Shown one piece after another: positions 2 through 44,614 of a stretch of 64,000 nt of DNA (positions within the stretch are counted from its first letter, which is position 1; every line of letters starts with the position of its first letter). The stretch is from contig NW_026515675.1 of the NCBI RefSeq assembly GCF_025526975.1, positions 744,001-808,000 of the forward strand, read 5' to 3'. Origin of the DNA: Fimicolochytrium jonesii. Lineage: Eukaryota. The notes below the pieces were generated by a model, which was not told where the DNA came from, did not search any database, and saw only the letters and a program-made list of their open reading frames with translations. The translations under genes and the position numbers were made by a program.

Positions 2-771
2 CGGATCGCCCAATCCAAAGACCCGCAACTCGAGGAGCTTGGACGATTCTACAAGGAGCAGACGGCCTTCTTGAAGACGCTGCAGGGGGTCACGGATATA
101 CGCCACCCGAGCGCGGAGGGCATCGAGGTTGTCTGGGATCGGGGCGAGGATGCGTTTGCGGTGCTGGTGACGTTCAGGAGGGATGCGGGGAGGGCGAGTG
201 GGTGGGTTGTTGATGCGCAGGTATGATTTTGTCATTTGTTTTTCTTTTTTTTTCGCACGATTGTTAACTCTTCTTGATCGTAGTTCACAAACACACCCTA
301 CCCCTATCCCCTAACCGCCCTCCTCCAAACCGCCAACACCCATCCCACCCTCGACTCCACCCTCCGCTACCTCACCGCCACGATCCCACTGCGCACACGC
401 AACCACATCGCCCGTGAGCGCGAACTAGCCCATCTCACAACCGACGGTCTCCACCCCGACATGCATATCAGCTACGACTCGCACACGCGGCAGGTGGTTG
501 TGCATGTCGACACAACTGGACGCACGTTTGTGCTGTTTTTGGGGGAGGGATATCCGGGAAGTGGGATGGAAGGGGTGGAAGTTGTAGGCGTGGAGCCGAG
601 AGTGAGTGAAAGTGAGGGTGTGGAGGGGTGGACGGTATGTATCGTGTTTGGTGTATATAATGAGTGCGTGGGTGATTCATTCATTGTGTTGACTAACTTC
701 ATGGTTTCTAGGACCGGCTGAGAGCGAGTGGGGCAAGGTGCTTCAAAGATGTCTTGGGTTTGTTGCAGTGA
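2..771 (+). CDS. 3' part of a spliced gene truncated by the window start; unknown protein, possibly tandem RWD-like (kinetochore-type) folds
   Basis: Exons 2-220, 284-634 and 712-771 join in frame across GT..AG introns 221-283 and 635-711 (branch GACTAAC): RIAQSKDPQLEELGRFYKEQTAFLKTLQGV...VVVHVDTTGRTFVLFLGEGYP...DVLGLLQ*. The fold guess is weak inference. Confidence 0.55.
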
Positions 772-35602: not shown

Positions 35603-37876
35603 ATGACCATCTCCGCCAAGTTGCTCCTCGTCGCCTCGAGCGCATTGCTCGCCACCAGCAGCGCCTTCGCTCAGCTCGTCCTTCTGGGAGATTTCCTCGA
35701 GTTCCAGCCCCCGGCACTGACCGTCGCCGACGTGCAGGTCGCCACATCTTTCCAAGTCCGTCTGAAGTCCCCTCCCAACGACACCGCCACCGTCTTCTGG
35801 GACACGCCCGGCATCAAAACCAGCAACTGCACGACCACCTGGACAAAGGAGGACTACAATGTGTTCAAGCCTATGAAGTTTTACCCCATCAACCAATACA
35901 CCAAGGAAGGCAATGCCGCTATCAACGTCACTGTCAAGATGGACGCCCCTGGCTCCGTCTACGACAAGGAGGTCGCCACATACCCATGCACGCGTGATTA
36001 CAAGAAGGCGGTTACTTGCACGTCCTTGGGTGACCCACATTTCAAGACATTCGGTGGATCCGTGTACGATTACATGGAACCCGGTGTCCACTACCTCGTC
36101 AGGAGCGACCTGCTGACCGTCCAGTCCTCCGCGTTCATCTGCAACGCCGGCAGCACCTGTAACGACGCCATTGCCGTCCGCTACGGTAACGCGGCTGTGG
36201 TCTTGTCCAGCAAAGGCAAGACCGCCGCCGACGCCGTCGCCGTCGACCTTCACCAGGCTTCCGACTCCCTGGACGGTCTGAAGATCACCGTGTCCCCAGA
36301 CAAGCGCCACTACCTCATCGAGCTTCGCGAAGACGGGTCCCAGATCGAAGTGCAGGCCAACGTCTTCAACAACCTTATGTACATGGACATCACTATCCGC
36401 TTGGGTGCGCCTTACTTTGGCCGTGTCCACGGTCTCTGCAACGTGTATGCCGATGGTGCCGACAAGGGCTTGGAGTGCTCTGACGGATCGCTCACTCAGT
36501 CCGGTGCGGTCCTCGGTGGTTCTTGGAAGGTTCAGGCTGACGACAACATCTTTGCCTGCGGTGCGGCCTGCACTGCCAAGCAGCCCAGCGCGCCGGTTGA
36601 TGACGGTGGCAGCATCTGCGCCATTCCCGCCCACCCTACCGTCGAGGAACCAGCCGTCACCACCTCTGAAGTGGTCGAGCCAACTGTCATTACCAAGTTC
36701 ATCACTGAGACGAACGTGCAATCTACCACCTTGATCAACGGCAAGGAGACCAAGGACAACCAGGCCACTACCACCGCTGCCGACCCCGAGAATGGAGGCG
36801 CCACCGCTACCGCCACCGTAACAGAAGGTTCCGAGGCCACTTCGGTGATCACCAACACCGTCCTCGAGACCAACGCCGTTTTCATCACCACCGAGGTTAC
36901 GCGGATCGTCACGGCCACGGTTAACCACGAGGTCAACGTGCCTGTCGCCACCACGGTCACCAGCACCTACTTCTCCACCGTCACCGTTCTGCCCAAGTAC
37001 ACCCCGGACCCGAACATGGCCACCGAGACGGTAACCGTCACCAACCAAGCGCAGGCGAGCCCCACCGCCGACGTCGTTCTCCCCGGCGGCAACCACGAGG
37101 TGCCCCGCCCGGCCAACTGCCCCGAGAAGTTCTACAACGACGCGCACACCAACTGCAACACCCTCCTCAACGTCGAAGCGTGCTCCGCCCAGGTCGATAT
37201 CTCCTTCTACGTCTTCTCCTGTGTCCGCGACGCCGTTCGCGTCGGATCGTTCATCTTTGCCGAGGGAACCAAGAACCAGATGCTCAGCAACTGCCGCGCC
37301 AAGACCGATGCCGCGTTCGACTCTGACGATGCACCTGCGAAGGAACAGGCTCGCCAGGTCCAGCAGCAGGTCGGGCTCGGCATCCACGACTGCGGGGGCT
37401 GTGGAAAGGGCGCCTGCACACCGGACGGATGTCGCTGCCCGACTGGTTTCACCGGCCAGCACTGTGAGACCGATTCCAGCACCCTGCCTACTTACAACGC
37501 TCCCCCGGTCATCAACGTTCAGGGCGCGACGGTCGACTCCAAGCGCGACCCTAACAACTCTGGCGATGCGGTCGACCCGACCACTCCTGCTGCTGGAAAG
37601 CAGGGCGAGACCACCACCACTGCTGAGGGCAAGACTACCACAGAAGGCAAGCCGGCTGCCTCCGACTCTGCCCCTGCCGCACCTGCCGCACCTGCCGCAC
37701 CGGCCGCCGGCGCCACCTCCGCCAACAACCCATTCCCCGTCGAGCAACTTCCCGCCGCCGGCCCCATCACCAACACACCCGCCACCCCCCCAGCCACCGA
37801 AGGCATCATCTCCGGCGCCCGCTCCGTGGCTGCCGGCTTTGGCTCGTTCGTCGCTGCTGTTGCCCTCTTGCTGTAG
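35603..37876 (+). CDS. Secreted, probably GPI-anchored von Willebrand factor type D (VWD) / Cys-rich / EGF surface protein
   Basis: Signal peptide; CTSLGDPHFKTFGG and VHGLCN (VWD); Thr/Val-rich stalk; Cys-rich segment; EGF CGKGACTPDGCRCPTGFTGQHCE; ISGA-RSVAAGFGSFVAAVALLL GPI-like end. Intronless; CATAAAA at 35506-35512. Confidence 0.85.
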   Translation: MTISAKLLLVASSALLATSSAFAQLVLLGDFLEFQPPALTVADVQVATSFQVRLKSPPNDTATVFWDTPGIKTSNCTTTWTKEDYNVFKPMKFYPINQYTKEGNAAINVTVKMDAPGSVYDKEVATYPCTRDYKKAVTCTSLGDPHFKTFGGSVYDYMEPGVHYLVRSDLLTVQSSAFICNAGSTCNDAIAVRYGNAAVVLSSKGKTAADAVAVDLHQASDSLDGLKITVSPDKRHYLIELREDGSQIEVQANVFNNLMYMDITIRLGAPYFGRVHGLCNVYADGADKGLECSDGSLTQSGAVLGGSWKVQADDNIFACGAACTAKQPSAPVDDGGSICAIPAHPTVEEPAVTTSEVVEPTVITKFITETNVQSTTLINGKETKDNQATTTAADPENGGATATATVTEGSEATSVITNTVLETNAVFITTEVTRIVTATVNHEVNVPVATTVTSTYFSTVTVLPKYTPDPNMATETVTVTNQAQASPTADVVLPGGNHEVPRPANCPEKFYNDAHTNCNTLLNVEACSAQVDISFYVFSCVRDAVRVGSFIFAEGTKNQMLSNCRAKTDAAFDSDDAPAKEQARQVQQQVGLGIHDCGGCGKGACTPDGCRCPTGFTGQHCETDSSTLPTYNAPPVINVQGATVDSKRDPNNSGDAVDPTTPAAGKQGETTTTAEGKTTTEGKPAASDSAPAAPAAPAAPAAGATSANNPFPVEQLPAAGPITNTPATPPATEGIISGARSVAAGFGSFVAAVALLL

Positions 37877-38421
37877 ATCAGCTTTTCCAAATCAGCTCCC
37901 TATTAGATAGCGCTCCATCGTCTCCCCCCTTGTATAGTTTCTTTGAGTTTATAGTTCTGTGGATATTCCCCCGCCCCCCGTCATTAGACATTTTCTGTAC
38001 ATAGAATGCAACGCAGTTGTTGTAAATCATAAAGCCAAATTGAGCGTTTTTTCCTCATACTTGAACGTTCCACGTTTCTTTCGCTTCTTCTCTTCCTCTC
38101 CGACCCGCGGCCTCTTCGATGTCGCAACGAGCACTCATCTGGCACTTCCTCACGCGTTTTCTCCCCCCGCTCGTCCTGTCAAAGCCCTGTCAATTGCGGC
38201 CTATCTCATGCCTGCGGTCACATCAACTGAGACCCCTCCACACACACGTCCTCATTAATGCGGTCCCCTTTCGCAGTTGTGGAGAGCGCCTTGTTTCTCG
38301 TTTCTCCGGCGATCTGCTCAGAGGGATAAAACCAACTCGTCTTATCGTTTAAAGGAAAGCTGTACAACACTTCCTCTTTGTTCAATCACAACGCGAGAGG
38401 TTGACAACGAACAACCTCACG

Positions 38422-41400
38422 ATGCATACATTCATAACTGTTCTGTTCCTCGTCCTCGCTTCGATAATCGGCTCTGTCTTTGCCCAACAGCGATGGAACG
38501 AGACGGGAAATTTGGTAGGCTATGGGGCAAGCGGGCAGCCACTCTATCGGTATGAAGAAAGGAACCCATGGTCGTGTTCCCTCGTTATTCTCTACTTACA
38601 TTCATTCGTACCCTCCCAGGGCCACGCAATTGCCGGATATGAGCCAGTACAGCCGGCCCGTGACGCTTGCTCGTACGGAAACCGGCCAATTGCAGTTTGC
38701 GTACTACATCGAAAACAACACCTATTTGCGCTTTATGACGATGATGACGGGGTTTAAGCTTGGACATGTATGCGAACGGATGTACTTTCAGACTTGATGG
38801 CTTGTATGTGCGCTAAGCAAAACATTTCGCTCTCATTGCAGGCATTCATGGGTCTCGGCTTCGGCGACTCCATGCTCATAGCCGATTTCGTAATCACGCA
38901 CCTCGGCCCCGACGGTTCCACCGTCGAATCCCACGAACACATCCACCGCATGCAATACGCGCCCCCCTGGGCCTCTGAAAACCCCGAGCCGTGGGTGATC
39001 GAGCCCATCAACGGCGGCTTGGTGAACGGCACCTTCTTCAGCGAGATCCGACGCCCGTTTGATCCCCCGCAGCGTAGTCGACCGCATGTTGCGCTGGCGA
39101 GGGGAGATGTTGGCGATGGACAGCATGTTATTTGGGCGTATAATGTGGATTCGCCGAAGAATGATTGGGGTGGGAATTTTGAGTATCATAATCCCAACCC
39201 AGGTATGTCGACCTTCATCGAGTGTGCGCCTCGACCAACACAACTCACGCTTTGTTTGCCTCCCTCGCACCAGGAAGCAAGACCGGCCTCCCCAGCGAAA
39301 TCGGCCAAACCCACGGCAAGATGCTCGTCAACTTCGACCGCCGCAGCATTATCTATCAAGCGGTGCCCAACCCCGCCGGCCGCCTCGCCCACGGCATCAT
39401 GATGTTCACCGCCGCGCTCGTCATCTTCCCCGCCGGCGCCTTCTACTCCCGCTACATGCGCTTCATCCCCAGATGGATCTGGGTCCACATCGCGCTGCAG
39501 AGCATCGGCTACATCACCCTTCTCGCCGGTCTGGTCACGATGGTCCTCACCATCCGCACGTTCCGAGTCCACCCGCATTCCATCCTAGGTCTCGTGCTCA
39601 TTGGGTTATTGACCGCGCAGGTGTTTTTTGGATTCAGCAACCGCTCCCTCCTCCGCACCGACCTCCCGCGCACCCCGCGCCGCACAATGGTCAAATGGTT
39701 CCACCGCCTGCTCGGCACAGCCCTGATCCTCGGCGCCGTCGTGCAGGTCTACCTCGGCCTGCGGATCCTGTATCCACTGGAGGAGCCGCGCGGGGACGCC
39801 TTCTGGATCGTGTATTTTGTCGTCATTGGGTTCTGGGTGGCCGTGTTTGTGTGCACGCAGATTGGACGCAGGGCGTTCTTTGTGATTAAGGACAGGCCGT
39901 ATGCGGCCGTGCCGACCGAGGAGGGCGGGAAGTTTAGGGAGCCGCCGGGGATTGTGGAGTTGAATAGACGACAGGGGGGAAGGTTGTATCCGAATTTGGA
40001 AGCTTATGATTGGAAGGCGTTGGATAATGAGATTCGTCATGGGTAAGGATTACAGAAGTGTTTCTTTCGTTTGCTCCTTGTTGATGTTCTAAACTGTGTG
40101 ATGTCGGTAGTCGCCTCTTGGTCGTTGCAAACTCACGCTACATCTACGACACGTCAGAGTGGATCACTAGTCACCCCGGAGGCCAGGTGAGTGAGGGGGG
40201 GTTTCGGCGTCGTTCTCGATTAGACGGATATACTAACAACCGCTTTCAGTCCATCTTGTTGGCCGTTGCGGGAACAGACATCACAAGCGACTACTTCCAT
40301 GAAGGTAAATCTGACATCCCACGCTCTTCGAAACACGGCGCTAACCGTTTGTATGCTCTTCCTCTCCATCGCTCCTTTCGCAGGCGGATACGATGCGGTG
40401 GAGTAAGTATTGTCCAAGCCTCGGTTTACATCTCATGGCTTTCAATAACCAGTGCTCTTCACTCCTCCGTCCCTCACAGGTTCACACCGGCCCCCCCAGC
40501 CCCCAAACAAAGCTCCCGCCGCAAGAAAGCGCCCGTGCCCAACATGACCGCCACGCCCGACGCGCGCCTTTCGATTTCCGACATCCAGGGCGGGGAGGTG
40601 GAGGCGTACACCATGACGGCGCCCGCGGTGTTGACGCAGGCGGATTGGACAAAGATCACCCGGGCGAGGAGGCCGCATGTTCACACCAAGGTGTGTCCGA
40701 TTCCTCAAGATCTCTCCCGACGCGCAAACTCACCGCTCCCATCCATCCATCCCAGCTGGCCATCATGCGTCTCGCCCACCTCCTAGTCGGCGAACTCACC
40801 CCCGCCGCGTCCTCTCCGGATGATCCCGGCTCCCTCTACCACTTCGACCCGTACGAATACCGCCGCTACGCCTTGACTTCAAAGGAGCTCCTAACCGACC
40901 CCACCCAAAACTGCGCGCACCAGATCTACCGGCTCCGCTTCTGCCTCCTGTACCCCTTCGAGCCGCGCACCGCCGCCCCCGACGAGATCCTGCCGGGCCA
41001 GTGCATCGAGCTCCAAGTCCGCGTCAACGGCGTGCCGATGGCGCGATACTACTCCCCCGTCACCGGCACGCTCTCCGCCCTCGAGGTGTGGGTTAAGGCG
41101 TACCCGACCCAGGGGGTGAGCAGCTTTGTGTGCCGGGAACGCCCCGGGGACAGGCAGTTCAAGATCAGGGGTCCGTTTGGGCCGCCGTTGCTGGATCTGA
41201 TCAGTCCGAGCTTGAAGCCGGAGAGTTGGATTTGGGGGAGTATATTGTATGTCGCGGGCGGGACGGGGATCACGCCGTTTTTGCAGCTGTGCCAGTATCT
41301 GTTTCTGCCGGTCGGTGTGCCGTTGAAGGTGAGGGTCTGGACCTTCTTACGGAATGTTGGACGCGTTCACTCCACGCGCGTGGACGTACTGTAAAAACAC

Positions 41401-42291
41401 TCACGAACGAAACGACCTTTTCGCAATTTGGCAGGCCTCGTCCGCATACACCCCAACAATGCCCGACGAACTCACCATACGCGCCAACGACATCCTCGTA
41501 AGTCCCCCAGAATCCCTCTAGAATCCGGTCCCCCTCCCTGCACCCACCTCCCTAAACGGCGCCTCCCCGCCCCCAGGTCGTAACCCACCACTACCTCGAC
41601 GGCTGGGCGCACGGCACGAACCTCGACACGAACGAAGACGGCGTGTTCCCGCTCCCGATCACGGTCCCGCGGCACGGGCCGCACGTCAAGCTGGTCCTGC
41701 TGAACTGCGCGTCGTTTGTCGGGGATCTGGTCGGCGGGGAGATCATCGACGCCGTGCTGTTGAGTTACCCGGCCCAGTTGGAGGTGCATCATTGTGTCGC
41801 CGGCGGCGTGCCCGACGGTCGCGGGCGGTTCAGGTACGTGGGGGCGACTCCCTCCCCGTCCCTATCTTTTTTTCTCGTTTTCTGAGCCCTGTTGGTGTCG
41901 AGTGGGGGTTCGAATCCACTGATACTTTCGACCCCTTTTGTTTGCGTTGGGTAGCGGCTTCGCGTACACCGGCCACCTGACGGACCGCATTCTCCGCGAA
42001 GCCGTTCGCGGCGCCGCCAGCACGTCCAGCCCCGGGATGCGCTCCCGGGACGACCATTCGCACGTACAGGGGAAATGGAGTATTGTGTCGGGGCCGGCGA
42101 GTTTCAATGAGTTTGTTTATGGGAAGGTAAGGCTGGAAGCAATTTTTTGGGGGGGGGGATGTGTGAGGGGGTAAGGGGGCGGTTAATGATGGGTGAATTT
42201 TTTTGGTTAGTTGGTGCAGATGTTTGGATATAGGGATAAGGATATCGCGGTGTTGAGTAACTCGGTTGCTGATTGGAGGCAGGAGGGGTGA
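38422..42291 (+). CDS. Multi-domain membrane oxidoreductase: signal peptide - DOMON - cytochrome b561 - cytochrome b5 - FAD/NAD(P)H reductase with inserted SH3
   Basis: More than 10 exons. FMGLGFGDSMLIADFVI and FEYH (DOMON); AHGIMM, WVHIALQ, HPHSILG, WFHRLLG (b561); YDTSEWITSHPGG..AGTDIT (b5); RYYSP, RGPFG, AGGTGITPFLQ, SGPASF (FNR family); YTPTMPDELTIRANDIL|VVTHHYLDGWAHG..GVFP (SH3). Confidence 0.85.
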
Positions 42292-42712
42292 ATCTTCAAG
42301 CTCGGGCCTGTTATGTTTTGTTGCGTCTTCCTATTTTCCTTTCGAGAGGGGGCTTTGTTATGATGGGGGTGGATCGGCGCGGTTATCGTTTCGCTGGTGA
42401 ATGCTTTCGGCCTATTTTTTTCTCTCCTCCCTTTGTATCCATCGGCGTAGTTGAGCTTGTAGCCCAGAGCCTCGTTTACAGTAGCTTAGCGCACGACGAG
42501 CCCGTAGTGATCCTGTTCTCATCCTGCTATACAAATCATTCTTTCTTGAAGCCAATGAAATAAAACGATGGTTCTATTCCGAAGTCTCCGAATGCATGCG
42601 AAACAAAAAGAAAAATGGGCGTCAGGTCTAGCTAGCTACGGCGTCATGTATGTACAAATCCAACTCGAGTTTGTTCATCCCCCATCCCTCTGTGAATGTA
42701 TGCCCATCCCCC

Positions 42713-44614
42713 CTAATTCCTCCCAATCATCTTATCCATCACCCTGAACAACAACCCACTCATCCGTTCCGGCTCCGTCTGATACACACTCATCAAAAGC
42801 CCCATGCTCACACCCCCCATCAAGATCTCGAACCCCGGGATGCGCGTCATCACCCCGCGTTGATGTAACAGCTTCCACGCGGACGTGAACGCCTTCGGCG
42901 CGACGTACATGGCGAGTTCCGAGCGGCGCTGTTTGTGTTCGAGGAAGATGGAGGACGAGCAGCACATGCCGACAAAGTAGTACCAGTATCGGTGGTCCCT
43001 GCGGAGCACGTTTGGGATGGGCAGGGAGGAGAGGGCGAGGTTGCGTTGCGCGCAGATCATGACCTGGAAGATGCTGATGAACGCCGCGAGGAAGACGGCG
43101 CTCCGGGCGGTGGCGACCAGGTTTCGTTTTGTAACGTTCACGGGGTCGTGGAGGAGGACTTTTGGTTTGAAGAGGAGGAGCGGGACGAAGTTGAGGGCGA
43201 GGTAGACGGGGCCGATGTCGCGGAAGATGGTTGGCCAGAGTTGGGCGTTGTAGGTTAAGCAGGAGGCGGAGGAGGGGTGGAGGACGGAGCAGGGGACGAG
43301 GGGGAGCTGGCCGTTGTTCGCGTTGAGGTATCCGAGGGCGGAGGAGACGAGCTGTGGTGTGAAGGATTTGGGGCGGTGTTCGATGAGGGATGTCATGCGT
43401 TTCGCGGTATCCGGGAGAGTGATGCCCTTTGAGTAGGCGGCGACGTGGGTGCGGTTGAAATCGAGGATGGGGTGGGAGACCTGGCAGATGTTGACCATCC
43501 ACCTGTAGTATTCGGGCGGGATGGTGGTGGGCTGGATGATAAGGGCGTAGAGGATGCTGGCGCAGCTGAGCATGAAGAGGGCCGAGTCTCCGTGCGGGAA
43601 GTGGACGAGTTCCCGGGCTTTGAGGGCGTTGTAGCCGGCCTGCATGGAGCGGACGAAAAATTGTTGGGCGATGGCTATGCGGGATTCTTTTTCTTCAAAG
43701 AGCAGGGCGACGCTGCCTGCGATTCCGCCGGCGATCATCCCGTGCAGTTTGGAGGAGCGGTCGGAGGTGTGGGCTAGGAGGTTGTTGATGAGTTTCCAGA
43801 GGAAGGAGAAGGAGCCGATCATGGCTGCGAAGCGGGTTGATGTTGGGGCGTAGAATGCGGAAAGAGCGGATTTGAGCGTCGTCTTGCCCCGGAGGAAGAA
43901 GATGGTTTTGATCAGCGATGCGATCCCGCCTCGGAGGGCGTAACCTATGTAGGAGGAGAGATAATTATCATTAACAATCAGCCATCAACAACCATCAACA
44001 ACCATCAACAAATCGACCATCAACCCATCAACCCATCAACCCATCAGCCATCGTCGGATCATCAACCATCTTCAACCATCGACGATTATTAGGGGAATCT
44101 TGCGCGAGGGGAGTATTGCGCCTTTTCAATGTAGCTCGCGCTGCTCGCGCTTCGCTGACACTCGCGTAGGCGTTTGCTCGGCGCAGACACCCCCACTTCG
44201 CTCGTTGCAGACAGCCACCCATCGCTCTCTCCTCTCGCGGTTCGCATGGCTCACGGCTACACCCCCTTTTGCTCGCGACAGAAAACCACCCCTCGCTTCG
44301 CTCACGGCTCGCCACGGTCGGTCGCTTACGGCCCACATACCTAGTAAAAACGAGCGCAAACCACCCGATGTCGCATGGACGATAATCTGACGAACCGAAT
44401 TCCATTTTGGAGGAACAACGGGTTTGGGTATCGTATGGTGGTGTTTGATGTTGGTAGATGCCGGCAGTGGAGTTGGAGCTGGAGCTGGAGAGATGGGACT
44501 TTTGGAAGGGTGAGGTGAAAAAGAACTTCCCGAGTCTCTTCGGATCTCAGCCTTTGCAGCGTCCGTGACGGTGAGTTCCGTCGTTGTTGGAGCAGACAGT
44601 TCGTCGGATGCCAT
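42713..44614 (-). CDS. TMEM135-like (peroxisomal membrane) protein
   Basis: Exon 44341-44614 ends GGLRSFLLG; intron 43945-44340; then YALRGG..RFAAMIGSF, IAGGIAGS, HGDSALFMLSCASILYA, PCSVLHP, RSAVFLAAF, LEHKQRRSELAMYVAPKA. Confidence 0.85.
43966..44080. repeat. Degenerate CCATCAA(CAA) tandem repeats inside the TMEM135 intron
   Basis: ccatcaacaa accatcaacaa accatcaacaa..caacccatcaacccatcaacccatc. Confidence 0.8.

What the first reader, a model, noticed from the sequence alone, without database searches (positions are those of the whole stretch)
38422..42291. One-gene trans-membrane electron wire: DOMON + cyt b561 + cyt b5 + FAD/NAD(P)H reductase
Seen: after splicing, one frame carries a signal peptide, a DOMON domain with candidate heme ligands (Met in GFGDSM, His in FEYH), a b561 domain with all four canonical His (AHG, WVH, HPH, WFH), a b5 domain (HPGG) and an FNR/b5-reductase module (RYYSP, GPFG, AGGTGITP, SGP). 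Known: DOMON-b561 (CYBDOM/SDR2-type) proteins normally take electrons from cytosolic ascorbate and lack their own reductase; b5 plus b5-reductase modules occur in soluble enzymes such as nitrate reductase and NCB5OR. Inference: this fusion could move electrons NAD(P)H > FAD > b5 > two b561 hemes > extracellular DOMON heme in a single chain, a NOX/FRE-independent ferric/cupric reductase, ROS source or LPMO electron donor. I know of no characterised protein with this architecture.
Basis: partly seen in the sequence, partly recalled or inferred. Interest (0 to 1): 0.85.

Follow-up and report, generated by a model that had tools for sequence, protein, structure and literature searches.

The report
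One-protein NAD(P)H-to-outside electron wire
This chytrid gene encodes one 970-residue membrane protein that joins an outward-facing haem domain, a two-haem membrane cytochrome, a cytochrome b5 and a flavin reductase, so it is predicted to carry electrons from cellular NAD(P)H across the membrane without the ascorbate that its known relatives need; the family is conserved in zoosporic fungi and I found no published study of it.

Summary
Window 38422-42291 (+) holds a 13-exon gene with 12 GT-AG introns. Its spliced product is letter for letter the 970-aa NCBI protein EV422DRAFT_566639 of Fimicolochytrium jonesii.

Module order:
- signal peptide
- DOMON-like beta domain (Met103, His208)
- 5-TM cytochrome b561 (His252/314 and His284/356)
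- cytochrome b5
- cytochrome-b5-reductase-type FAD/NAD module

- An SH3 domain sits inside the NAD-binding domain.
- The b5 domain is split by a disordered insert of about 55 residues. Its second axial His is most likely the invariant His587, not the His of YFHE.
- This is a family, not a single odd gene. 94 of the 150 best cluster representatives carry b561, b5 and FAD together. All 27 organism names obtained are Chytridiomycota or Blastocladiomycota. One clade adds an N-terminal animal-type haem peroxidase, which resembles DUOX.

Predicted redox ligands are 45-52 of 52 conserved. One exon encodes both the b561 domain and the start of b5, which argues against two separate genes.

The electron path NAD(P)H > FAD > b5 > b561 > DOMON is inferred, and the acceptor is unknown. 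Nine literature searches found no description. No RNA data were available.

The parts
38422..42291 (+). Whole coding region: 13 exons, 12 GT-AG introns of 63-121 nt, 970 codons plus TGA at 42289-42291.
   Evidence: Hand splicing. The script translation is identical to P0001. P0001 is NCBI EV422DRAFT_566639 of Fimicolochytrium jonesii.
38422..38484 (+). Predicted signal peptide (aa 1-21, MHTF...SVFA).
   Evidence: Hydrophobic N-terminus with maximum Kyte-Doolittle value 2.43. Modelled as a helix at 2-24 followed by a low-pLDDT linker. The cleavage site is inferred.
38512..39359 (+). DOMON-like all-beta domain (aa ~31-241, exons 1-4). Candidate haem ligands are Met103 (38872-38874) and His208 (39187-39189).
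   Evidence: The AF2 model has strands only between 31 and 241, with pLDDT mostly above 84. M103 is conserved in 50 of 52 members and H208 in 50 of 52. Pfam DOMON passes its cut-off in 10 of 55 relatives but not in the query.
39363..39878 (+). Cytochrome b561 core with five TM helices (aa 247-273, 280-305, 313-340, 347-378, 387-414). His252 (39390-92) and His314 (39576-78) are predicted to hold the outer haem. His284 (39486-88) and His356 (39702-04) are predicted to hold the inner haem.
   Evidence: Pfam PF03188 scores 33.7 bits against a cut-off of 23. VIA-align gives 4o6y Z 15.8 (rmsd 3.3, 160 aligned) and Dcytb 5zlg Z 15.7. His conservation is 52, 51, 45 and 51 of 52.
39993..40797 (+). Split cytochrome b5 domain (aa ~453-603, exons 4-9). 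The first half, aa 453-520, carries His490 (40172-74). A disordered, variable insert covers aa ~521-569. The second half, aa 570-603, carries His585 (40676-78) and His587 (40682-84).
   Evidence: Pfam Cyt-b5 scores 34.2 bits but covers only profile positions 14-50 of 74. H490 and H587 are each conserved in 52 of 52 members, while H511 at YFHE is conserved in 21 of 52. The model of this part alone aligns to whole b5 structures: 7bwh Z 10.1 with rmsd 2.2 and 80 of 88 residues, bovine b5 1f03 with 80 of 82 residues. The profile segment vHtklAiekL aligns to GHSKYAIKRM of 7bwh.
40840..41223 (+). FAD-binding beta-barrel (aa 618-745) with RYYSP 686-690, GVSS 709-712 and GPFG 728-731.
   Evidence: Pfam FAD_binding_6 scores 22.4 against a cut-off of 21.1. 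Conservation is R686 49, Y688 46, P690 50 and G728 52 of 52. Fold matches are CYB5R3 7w3o Z 20.9 and yeast Cbr1 7rom Z 20.8.
41224..41322 (+). First strand and helix of the NAD(P)H-binding domain (aa 746-778) with GGTGITP 757-763.
   Evidence: Conservation is G758 51, G760 49 and P763 42 of 52. Pfam NAD_binding_1 gives a partial hit in orthologues.
41323..41663 (+). SH3 domain nested inside the NAD(P)H-binding domain (aa 779-830, exons 9-11).
   Evidence: Pfam SH3_1 scores 32.5 bits against a cut-off of 22.9, at residues 781-826. D809, G810 and W811 are conserved in 46, 51 and 51 of 52 members, and P826 in 48 of 52. PDB SH3 chains match the family profile, for example vinexin 2ct3 at 1.8e-12.
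41664..42291 (+). Remainder of the NAD(P)H-binding domain (aa 831-970), with SGP 932-934 in place of the family's CGP, followed by the stop codon.
   Evidence: The b5R fold alignment runs to residue 959. Position 932 is C in 44 of 52 members and S in 3 of 52, the query among them.

Best explanation
The gene encodes a single 970-residue membrane protein that is predicted to work as a self-contained transmembrane electron chain: a cytosolic b5-reductase-type module would take two electrons from NAD(P)H onto FAD, and these would pass one at a time to the fused cytochrome b5 haem, then to the inner and outer haems of the 5-TM cytochrome b561, and finally to a haem b in the DOMON domain on the far side of the membrane.

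Shown here:
- the gene structure
- the module order
- the predicted folds
- conservation of the proposed ligands
- conservation of the family

Inferred:
- haem and FAD occupancy
- the direction and continuity of electron flow
- NADH versus NADPH as donor
- the membrane (plasma membrane assumed)
- the acceptor

The most likely acceptors are Fe(III) or Cu(II) chelates, as for plant CYBDOM proteins, or a partner metalloenzyme. The fused reductase would replace the cytosolic ascorbate that characterised b561 proteins use. The nested SH3 domain likely docks a proline-rich partner or segment that regulates or positions the reductase.
For: Single gene:
- Exon 4 encodes aa 213-468. That is the whole b561 domain plus the start of the b5 domain, including invariant W459.
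- The exon 8/9 junction cuts the conserved motif HVHTK|LAIMRL.
- Of the 150 best cluster representatives from a search of 1.84 billion proteins, 104 carry b561 and b5 together and 124 carry the b5 C-half and FAD together.

Topology:
- A signal peptide plus 5 TM helices puts the N-terminal domain outside and the C-terminal modules inside.
- There are 7 K/R in the 40 residues after TM5.

Ligands, conserved out of 52 members:
- DOMON M103 50, H208 50
- b561 H252 52, H314 51, H284 45, H356 51
- b5 H490 52, H587 52
- R686 49, G728 52, G758 51

The His-pair spacing and the Met/His pair parallel HYP1, a plant CYBDOM shown to carry ascorbate-dependent trans-membrane currents to ferric and cupric acceptors (PMC10784544, passages read).

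Folds:
- Full-length AF2 model: pLDDT 86.4, pTM 0.74.
- CYB5R3 Z 20.9, Cbr1 Z 20.8, cytochrome b561 4o6y Z 15.8, Dcytb Z 15.7.
- The b5 part folded alone matches whole b5 chains at Z 8.4-10.1. The 16 best rows are all b5-fold proteins, and the next row has Z 2.3.

Recurrent extracellular redox partner:
- 8 family members carry an N-terminal animal haem peroxidase domain at E 7e-87 to 4e-118.
- The 7 of these that were placed in the tree fall in one 10-row clade, FastTree SH-like support 99.
Against: - No biochemical or expression data exist for any member that I could find, and no RNA run could be listed.
- The Pfam DOMON model does not reach its cut-off on the query, so haem binding by this DOMON is inferred from the conserved Met/His pair only.
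- The query has Ser932 where 44 of 52 members have the Cys of the CGP motif.
- The b5 domain carries an insert of about 55 residues just before its second His. The sequence match that assigns His587 is weak on its own (4 bits).
- I could not read model coordinates, so no haem-to-haem or FAD-to-haem distances were measured. Whether b5 can reach both the FAD and the inner b561 haem is unknown.
- One Rhizophydiales subclade (6 of 52) has Lys in place of H284.
- The cellular membrane is unknown.
Confidence: 0.62

Rival explanations
1. The same chain works as an oxidase. The outer haems would reduce O2 to superoxide or H2O2, making a NOX/DUOX analogue built on b561 instead of the ferric-reductase domain.
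For: - A clade of the family carries an N-terminal animal-type haem peroxidase, the same layout as DUOX.
- Two Naegleria NOX homologues also carry an SH3 domain inside the NADPH-binding domain (PMC3591440, passages read).
Against: - The query itself has no peroxidase domain.
- From recalled knowledge, b561 and DOMON haems are bis-ligated and of rather high potential, which makes them poor O2 reducers.
- A fused peroxidase could equally be an electron acceptor, as cytochrome c peroxidase is for cytochrome c.
Confidence: 0.15
2. The chain feeds electrons into the lumen of an organelle (ER, Golgi, vacuole or secretory vesicle) rather than to the cell exterior. There it would serve luminal metal reduction or a luminal monooxygenase, as animal CYB561 proteins do.
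For: A signal peptide with a 5-TM topology is equally compatible with any secretory-pathway membrane. No targeting signal was examined.
Against: Characterised DOMON-b561 proteins such as HYP1 sit in the plasma membrane (PMC10784544).
Confidence: 0.15
3. The b5-reductase half serves a cytosolic client, and the b561 half still takes a small-molecule donor such as erythroascorbate. The fusion would then only co-localise two independent activities.
For: - b5 plus b5R fusions that act on soluble or ER clients exist, for example NCB5OR: the 6mv1/6mv2 and 3lf5 structures are matched.
- The docking test gave no verdict.
Against: - The fusion order is fixed in 94 of the 150 best representatives across two fungal phyla.
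- The b5 domain follows the last TM helix after only about 40 residues.
- All four b561 His and both b5 His are co-conserved.
Confidence: 0.06
4. The long open reading frame is a gene-model artefact that merges a DOMON-b561 gene with a downstream b5-reductase gene.
For: - No transcript data could be obtained.
- Some database relatives are clearly over-merged, for example P0041 with Peptidase_S10 and P0055 at 2637 aa.
Against: - b561 and the start of b5 share exon 4 with no stop between them.
- All 12 introns are short GT-AG introns that keep the frame.
- Six other annotated species gave full-length orthologues, and many independent assemblies give the same order.
Confidence: 0.02

Closest known systems
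CYBDOM proteins (DOMON + cytochrome b561): plant HYP1 and CRR, animal SDR2/FRRS1
   Same: - N-terminal signal peptide.
- Extracytoplasmic DOMON with a Met/His pair: M90/H174 in HYP1, M103/H208 here.
- A b561 core with two His pairs on alternate helices.
- A three-haem conduit across the membrane.
- The Atlas structure search also lists a plant DOMON-b561 cluster at TM 0.34-0.36 over residues 46-588, as a lead only.
   Different: - HYP1 uses cytosolic ascorbate as its specific donor and has no reductase (PMC10784544).
- This protein continues after TM5 into b5, FAD, NAD and SH3 modules.
- Whether it still binds ascorbate was not tested.
NADH-cytochrome b5 reductase and its natural fusions to b5 (NCB5OR/CYB5R4, nitrate reductase C-terminal half)
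   Same: - b5R-type FAD barrel and NAD Rossmann domain: CYB5R3 Z 20.9 with rmsd 2.8 and 243 of 272 residues, Cbr1 Z 20.8, nitrate-reductase fragment 1cnf at E 9.7e-14.
- b5 lies N-terminal to the reductase, as in NCB5OR.
   Different: - Those enzymes are soluble or tail-anchored and deliver electrons to cytosolic or ER clients.
- No CS domain and no Mo-cofactor domain were found here.
- An SH3 domain interrupts the NAD domain.
- The b5 domain has an insert of about 55 residues.
- The query has SGP instead of CGP.
NOX / DUOX / FRE (ferric-reductase-domain superfamily)
   Same: - Works alike: NAD(P)H > FAD > two stacked transmembrane haems > outside.
- That superfamily has also added DOMON (Naegleria, oomycetes), a peroxidase domain (DUOX) and an SH3 inside the NADPH domain (Naegleria), according to PMC3591440 (passages read).
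   Different: - The membrane domain here is b561, not the ferric-reductase domain.
- The reductase matches Pfam FAD_binding_6 and NAD_binding_1, with only sub-threshold NAD_binding_6 hits in orthologues.
- An extra b5 haem sits between the flavin and the membrane haems.
- The resemblance is convergent.
Cellobiose dehydrogenase (flavin dehydrogenase + DOMON-like cytochrome domain)
   Same: A flavin domain passes electrons to a Met/His-ligated haem b in a DOMON-like beta sandwich that reduces external partners. Two relatives give weak Pfam CDH-cyt hits of 24.7 and 26.7 bits, below the cut-off of 27.
   Different: CDH is a secreted soluble enzyme that oxidises sugars. It has no membrane passage and no NAD(P)H module.

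Membership tests
Cytochrome b561 (PF03188) | Pfam model above its curated cut-off | tested here: met
   33.7 bits against 23 on P0001; 35.7 bits on exon 4 alone.
Cytochrome b561 (PF03188) | Four haem-ligating His on four consecutive TM helices | tested here: met
   H252, H284, H314 and H356 are present. They are conserved in 52, 45, 51 and 51 of 52 members and lie near the starts of helices 247-273, 280-305, 313-340 and 347-378.
Cytochrome b561 (PF03188) | b561 fold | tested here: met
   4o6y Z 15.8, rmsd 3.3, 160 of 210 residues. 5zlg Z 15.7, rmsd 2.7, 165 of 225 residues. The tool warns that helical bundles need a Z of about 13 or more.
Cytochrome b561 (PF03188) | Cytosolic ascorbate site | not tested
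   The equivalents of K77, K81 and R150 of 4O79 (named in PMC10784544) were not mapped.
DOMON (PF03351) | Pfam model above its curated cut-off (32.7) | tested here: inconclusive
   No hit on P0001 at E<=0.1. Orthologues P0002 and P0005 score 24.1 and 15.0. 10 of 55 further relatives pass, at 33.7-43.5 bits. The query aligns with these over the whole domain.
DOMON (PF03351) | Haem-binding type: Met and His ligands | tested here: met
   M103 is conserved in 50 of 52 members and H208 in 50 of 52. They are analogous to M90 and H174 of HYP1. Haem binding itself cannot be tested here.
DOMON (PF03351) | Beta-sandwich fold matched to a solved DOMON or CDH cytochrome | not tested
   The model is all-beta over 31-241.
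Cytochrome b5 (PF00173) | Pfam model above its cut-off, and the HPGG His | tested here: met
   34.2 bits against 23.7, covering profile positions 14-50 of 74 only. H490, P491, G492 and G493 are each conserved in 52 of 52 members.
Cytochrome b5 (PF00173) | Second axial His | tested here: met
   It is not at the usual distance: H511 is conserved in only 21 of 52 members. H587 is conserved in 52 of 52 and lies in a loop between helices 572-582 and 589-597. The family profile aligns it to the GHS His of 7bwh, weakly at 4 bits.
Cytochrome b5 (PF00173) | Complete b5 fold | tested here: met
   7bwh Z 10.1, rmsd 2.2, 80 of 88 residues. 1f03 Z 9.4, rmsd 2.0, 80 of 82 residues. The aligned model range is 6..159, so both halves are used.
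NADH-cytochrome b5 reductase / FNR family | FAD_binding_6 above its cut-off, and the RxY(S/T) and GPxG motifs | tested here: met
   22.4 bits against 21.1. RYYSP and GPFG are present, with R686 conserved in 49 and G728 in 52 of 52 members.
NADH-cytochrome b5 reductase / FNR family | NAD(P)H-binding GxGxxP and CGP motifs | tested here: inconclusive
   GGTGITP is present. The CGP Cys is Ser932 in the query (C in 44 of 52, S in 3 of 52). Pfam NAD_binding_1 does not reach its cut-off on P0001, because the SH3 insert splits the domain.
NADH-cytochrome b5 reductase / FNR family | Two-domain b5R fold | tested here: met
   7w3o Z 20.9, rmsd 2.8, 243 of 272 residues. 7rom Z 20.8. Foldseek gives 7rom at E 2.4e-13 with TM by target 0.75.
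SH3 (PF00018) | Pfam model above its cut-off | tested here: met
   32.5 bits against 22.9 at residues 781-826. The domain is present in the whole family, with G810 and W811 each conserved in 51 of 52 members.
NCB5OR (CYB5R4) | CS domain between b5 and b5R; soluble protein | tested here: not met
   Pfam gives no CS hit on P0001-P0006 at E<=0.1. The protein has 5 TM helices.
NOX/FRE (ferric-reductase-domain superfamily) | Ferric_reduct transmembrane domain | tested here: not met
   Pfam gives no such hit on P0001-P0006 at E<=0.1, and the membrane domain is b561. In orthologues NAD_binding_6 scores only 13.9-14.6 bits, below its cut-off of 22.2.
DUOX-like layout | Extracellular peroxidase domain N-terminal to the electron chain | tested here: not met
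   Absent from the query. Present in 8 paralogous or orthologous family members: P0006, P0044, P0051, P0064, P0068, P0072, P0083 and P0100.

The most novel reading that the evidence does not exclude
Zoosporic fungi hold a third, independently assembled kind of NAD(P)H-powered transmembrane electron exporter. It is a one-chain wire of FAD plus four haems (b5, two b561 haems, DOMON) that frees b561 from ascorbate. It has an SH3 switch built into the nucleotide domain, and a sister clade carries its own extracellular haem peroxidase, as a b561-based counterpart of DUOX.
Probability: 0.5. Interest if true: 0.8.

Novelty: new variant of a known kind. Interest (0 to 1): 0.72.

Why it matters
All characterised b561 proteins are described as ascorbate-driven (PMC10784544). 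NAD(P)H-driven electron export is the domain of NOX/FRE enzymes.

A b561 hard-wired to a b5/b5-reductase pair would be a new way to power trans-membrane electron transport. It would also be a natural four-haem wire whose hand-over from b5 to b561 has no studied precedent.

The family is confined, as far as names were obtained, to chytrids and blastoclads. It exists in several paralogues per genome, at least four in Spizellomyces punctatus. It also has a peroxidase-bearing clade, so it may underlie iron or copper uptake, wall chemistry or oxidant handling in these fungi.

It also offers a compact module for engineering NAD(P)H-coupled extracellular reduction.

Tried and rejected
- Whole genome: none is held for this window. 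Paralogues in F. jonesii itself, and the presence of NOX/FRE genes, could therefore not be checked.
- RNA evidence: no RNA holder was listed for 38300-42400.
- Word-index searches with P0001 and with alignment A2 returned only the five closest proteins and added nothing. The exhaustive search was used instead.
- Complex prediction of the b561 part (236-430, with 2 haems) against the b5 part (448-606, with 1 haem) gave no verdict: score 0.00 against a mark of 0.34, the alignments were not used, and the controls were not run. This is not evidence either way.
- His511 (YFHE) as the second b5 ligand was rejected. It is His in only 21 of 52 members.
- An intramolecular SH3-PxxP clamp using the b5 insert has weak support. 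PxxP occurs within 22 residues after D516 in 18 of 52 members and anywhere in the insert in 30 of 52. P522 is conserved in 41 of 52 and P527 in 29 of 52. I keep it only as a lead.
- The fold search of the full model listed no DOMON or CDH-cytochrome chain among its 50 rows, which were filled by reductases and b561. The domain was not folded alone.
- Earlier findings of this scan: none by place or by sequence.
- Literature: searches found no paper describing this fusion or naming these locus tags. Supplementary tables were not searched.
- The Atlas labels the nearest cluster as commonest in Ciliophora. This is unverified and is a lead only.


Full report
**What is in the sequence**

Reading 38300-42400 and the stop-to-stop frames, I spliced 13 exons by hand. 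The 12 introns are 63-121 nt and all are GT..AG.

A script that joins these coordinates gives a 2913-nt frame with a single terminal stop. Its translation is identical to database protein P0001, 970 aa. P0001 was found with exon 4 as the query. It is NCBI 'uncharacterized protein EV422DRAFT_566639 [Fimicolochytrium jonesii]', from a chytrid of the order Spizellomycetales.

The start (38422) and the end (42291) are exactly those of the finding.

**Modules**

Pfam on single exons already finds several modules:
- b561 at 35.7 bits and FAD_binding_6 at 25.1 bits
- partial Cyt-b5, NAD_binding_1 and SH3 hits

On the whole protein four models pass their curated cut-offs:
- Cyt-b5 34.2 (cut-off 23.7)
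- Cytochrom_B561 33.7 (23)
- SH3_1 32.5 (22.9)
- FAD_binding_6 22.4 (21.1)

The DOMON model does not hit the query at E<=0.1. It scores 24.1 bits in orthologue P0002, below its cut-off of 32.7. It passes the cut-off in 10 of 55 more distant members scanned. These members align with the query over the whole N-terminal domain.

AlphaFold2 with a 52-sequence family alignment gives a confident model, mean pLDDT 86.4 and pTM 0.74:
- an N-terminal helix (the signal peptide)
- an all-beta domain at 31-241
- five long helices: 247-273, 280-305, 313-340, 347-378 and 387-414
- a small alpha/beta domain
- a beta barrel
- a Rossmann-type domain interrupted by a small beta domain

Fold comparison:
- human CYB5R3: Z 20.9, rmsd 2.8 Å, 243 of 272 residues
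- yeast Cbr1: Z 20.8
- Arabidopsis cytochrome b561 4o6y: Z 15.8, model residues 243-406
- human Dcytb: Z 15.7

Foldseek agrees: 7rom at E 2.4e-13. So does the profile search of PDB sequences:
- b5R 2eix at 9.6e-19
- SH3 of vinexin at 1.8e-12
- b5 7bwh at 3.5e-10
- Dcytb 5zle at 1.7e-7

**Topology**

A signal peptide followed by five TM helices puts the beta (DOMON) domain on the extracytoplasmic side. The b5, FAD, NAD and SH3 modules are then in the cytosol.

The His residues sit near the helix starts in the alternation expected for b561. H252 and H314 are on the outer side, and H284 and H356 on the inner side. This is inferred from the model and from hydropathy, not measured.

(a) An SH3 domain (781-826) is inserted between the first strand-helix unit (GGTGITP...) and the rest of the NAD-binding domain. 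It is present throughout the family: G810 and W811 are each conserved in 51 of 52 members and P826 in 48 of 52.

(b) The b5 domain is split.
- Pfam covers only profile positions 14-50 of 74.
- At the usual place of the second axial His the family has Gly/Ala-Gly-Tyr/Phe.
- The His of YFHE (H511) is His in only 21 of 52 members.
- After a variable, low-confidence insert (about 521-569) comes a family-wide motif, R-R-x-H-V-H-T/S-K/R-L-A-I. In it R582 and H587 are invariant (52 of 52) and H585 is conserved in 45 of 52.
- H587 lies in a loop between two helices, as H490 does.
- A profile of this region aligns vHtklAiekLssllvg to GHSKYAIKRMSQYRIG of the tardigrade b5 7bwh, colinear with the first half. 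That second stretch is weak on its own, at 4 bits.
- Folded alone (pLDDT 72.6), the region superposes on complete b5 structures using both halves: 7bwh at Z 10.1, rmsd 2.2 Å, 80 of 88 residues; bovine b5 1f03 with 80 of 82 residues; NCB5OR b5 at Z 8.4.
- The 16 best rows are all b5-fold proteins, and the next row has Z 2.3.

I therefore read H490 and H587 as the haem pair.

**Conservation of the whole chain**

Among 52 aligned members:

| Module | Position | Conserved of 52 |
|---|---|---|
| DOMON | M103 | 50 |
| DOMON | H208 | 50 |
| b561 | H252 | 52 |
| b561 | H314 | 51 |
| b561 | H356 | 51 |
| b561 | H284 | 45 |
| b5 | H490 | 52 |
| b5 | H587 | 52 |
| FAD | R686 | 49 |
| FAD | Y688 | 46 |
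| FAD | P690 | 50 |
| FAD | G728 | 52 |
| NAD | G758 | 51 |
| NAD | G760 | 49 |
| NAD (CGP) | Cys at 932 | 44 |

- At H284, Lys replaces His in six sequences of one Rhizophydiales subclade.
- The query is one of three members with Ser at position 932.

**One gene or two**

- Exon 4 encodes aa 213-468. That is the complete b561 domain, the 40-residue cytosolic linker and the first strand and helix of b5, including invariant W459.
- The exon 8/9 junction cuts the conserved HVHTK|LAIMRL motif.
- The exon 9/10 and 10/11 junctions cut the SH3 domain.

A transcript ending after the b561 exon would therefore carry a truncated b5.

Independent gene models in many species give the same order. No RNA run could be listed, so the transcript remains unverified by reads.

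**Distribution**

An exhaustive phmmer search of 1.84 billion representatives found 950 proteins at E<=1e-3 and 164 at E<=1e-30.

I built my own module HMMs from six orthologues and applied them to the 150 best hits:

| Modules found together | Hits of 150 |
|---|---|
| b561 + b5 + FAD | 94 |
| the above + DOMON | 70 |
| the above + b5 C-half + SH3 | 58 |
| all eight modules | 39 |

Most of the rest are fragments from short contigs. Five are unrelated multi-SH3 proteins.

Names were obtained for 27 of 30 representatives looked up, plus the six proteins. All are zoosporic fungi:
- Chytrids: Spizellomyces, Geranomyces, Powellomyces, Thoreauomyces, Borealophlyctis, Gaertneriomyces, Gorgonomyces, Globomyces, Boothiomyces, Polychytrium, Irineochytrium, Dinochytrium, Rhizophlyctis, Blyttiomyces, Cladochytrium, Nowakowskiella and a Chytridiales species.
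- Blastoclads: Catenaria, Blastocladiella and Sorochytrium.

Phylum was checked with the taxonomy tool only for F. jonesii and Catenaria.

Spizellomyces punctatus alone has SPPG_00880, SPPG_04966, SPPG_07915 and SPPG_06812.

All source names are 'hypothetical', domain-derived or wrong. P0002, for example, is called S-methyl-5-thioribose-1-phosphate isomerase.

**A peroxidase-bearing clade**

Eight members carry an N-terminal animal haem peroxidase domain (PF03098) at E 7e-87 to 4e-118, in front of the DOMON. They are P0006, P0044, P0051, P0064, P0068, P0072, P0083 and P0100.

Seven of the eight (all but P0068) were among the 52 rows of a FastTree tree over 917 columns. They fall in one 10-row clade, with three blastoclad rows that lack the domain (local support 99, no bootstrap).

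The query lies in a different clade with SPPG_00880.

The Atlas also holds a 179-member 'heme peroxidase' cluster with Cyt-b5 in 97% and DOMON in 88% of members (lead only).

This layout mirrors DUOX. It shows that in this family the outer end of the chain is repeatedly coupled to an extracellular haem enzyme. Whether the chain feeds that peroxidase with electrons or with H2O2 cannot be told from sequence.

**Mechanism**

The last three steps have a characterised precedent in plant HYP1. HYP1 carries ascorbate-dependent trans-plasma-membrane currents to ferricyanide, ferric chelates and Cu(II), and has two His pairs and a Met/His DOMON site (PMC10784544, abstract and passages). That paper states that b561 proteins use ascorbate instead of the NADPH of FRO-type reductases.

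The first two steps are the ordinary b5R > b5 reaction.

The hand-over from b5 to b561 is new and untested. My docking job gave no verdict, and I could not measure distances in the model.

Donor specificity, membrane and acceptor remain open.

The SH3 domain inside the nucleotide-binding domain recalls two Naegleria NOX homologues with an SH3 at the same kind of place (PMC3591440, passages). This suggests regulation through a proline-rich partner. A conserved F-T/V-P-x4-P stretch at the start of the b5 insert is a weak candidate for an internal ligand.

**Comparison and novelty**

By its parts the protein is:
- a member of the b561, b5, b5R/FNR and SH3 families
- by homology to relatives that pass the model, a member of the DOMON family

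It is not:
- an NCB5OR, because it has no CS domain and is membrane-bound
- a NOX/FRE, because it has no ferric-reductase domain

It works like NOX/FRE and like CYBDOM proteins at once.

Nine full-text searches returned nothing that describes the fusion or its locus tags. They covered:
- DOMON/b561/b5 reductase
- CYBDOM
- b561 + Chytridiomycota
- DOMON + chytrid
- DOMON + peroxidase + Spizellomyces
- the locus tags
- peroxidase-cyclooxygenase superfamily + DOMON

Subscription journals and supplements were not covered.

I rate it a new variant of a known kind: known domains in an undescribed, conserved, functionally coherent order.

Noticed in passing
window 35603-37873 (+): The upstream neighbour is a 757-aa open frame with a hydrophobic N-terminus, a von Willebrand type D domain (PF00094, 27.3 bits), long Thr/Ser/Pro-rich stretches, Cys-rich EGF-like motifs and a hydrophobic C-terminus. 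It looks like a secreted or GPI-anchored mucin-like wall protein.
   Followed up: partly
window 42716-43984 (-): The downstream neighbour on the other strand is a 423-aa multi-pass membrane frame. It gives only a sub-threshold Tim17/Pmp24 hit, 21.7 bits against a cut-off of 32.7.
   Followed up: partly
P0011, P0022, P0027, P0036, P0047, P0050 (family alignment A2, column of H284): One subclade, whose named members are Gorgonomyces, Boothiomyces and Globomyces, has Lys instead of the inner-haem ligand His284. This means either His/Lys ligation or loss of that haem.
   Followed up: no
P0006, P0044, P0051, P0064, P0068, P0072, P0083, P0100: Paralogues and orthologues carry an N-terminal animal-type haem peroxidase in front of the same DOMON-b561-b5-reductase chain. 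This is a b561-based, DUOX-like layout found in both chytrids and blastoclads.
   Followed up: partly
P0002, P0036, P0083, P0041, P0055 (database records): Some database names are misleading: 'S-methyl-5-thioribose-1-phosphate isomerase', 'NADH-cytochrome b5 reductase' and 'frrs1L'. Two very long models, with Peptidase_S10 or DFP at the N-terminus, are probably merged neighbouring genes.
   Followed up: no
P0001 residues 521-569 (window about 40486-40632): The insert in the b5 domain is variable in length, 43-104 residues across the family. It is disordered in both models and in the query is rich in Pro, Lys and Arg (PAPPAPKQSSRRKKAPVP). It is a possible SH3 ligand or phosphorylation region.
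   Followed up: partly
Atlas cluster nearest to P0001: The nearest 54-member Atlas cluster (score 0.92) is labelled as commonest in Ciliophora. If that is true, the architecture would reach beyond fungi. It may instead be a taxonomic mislabel of metagenomic sequences.
   Followed up: no
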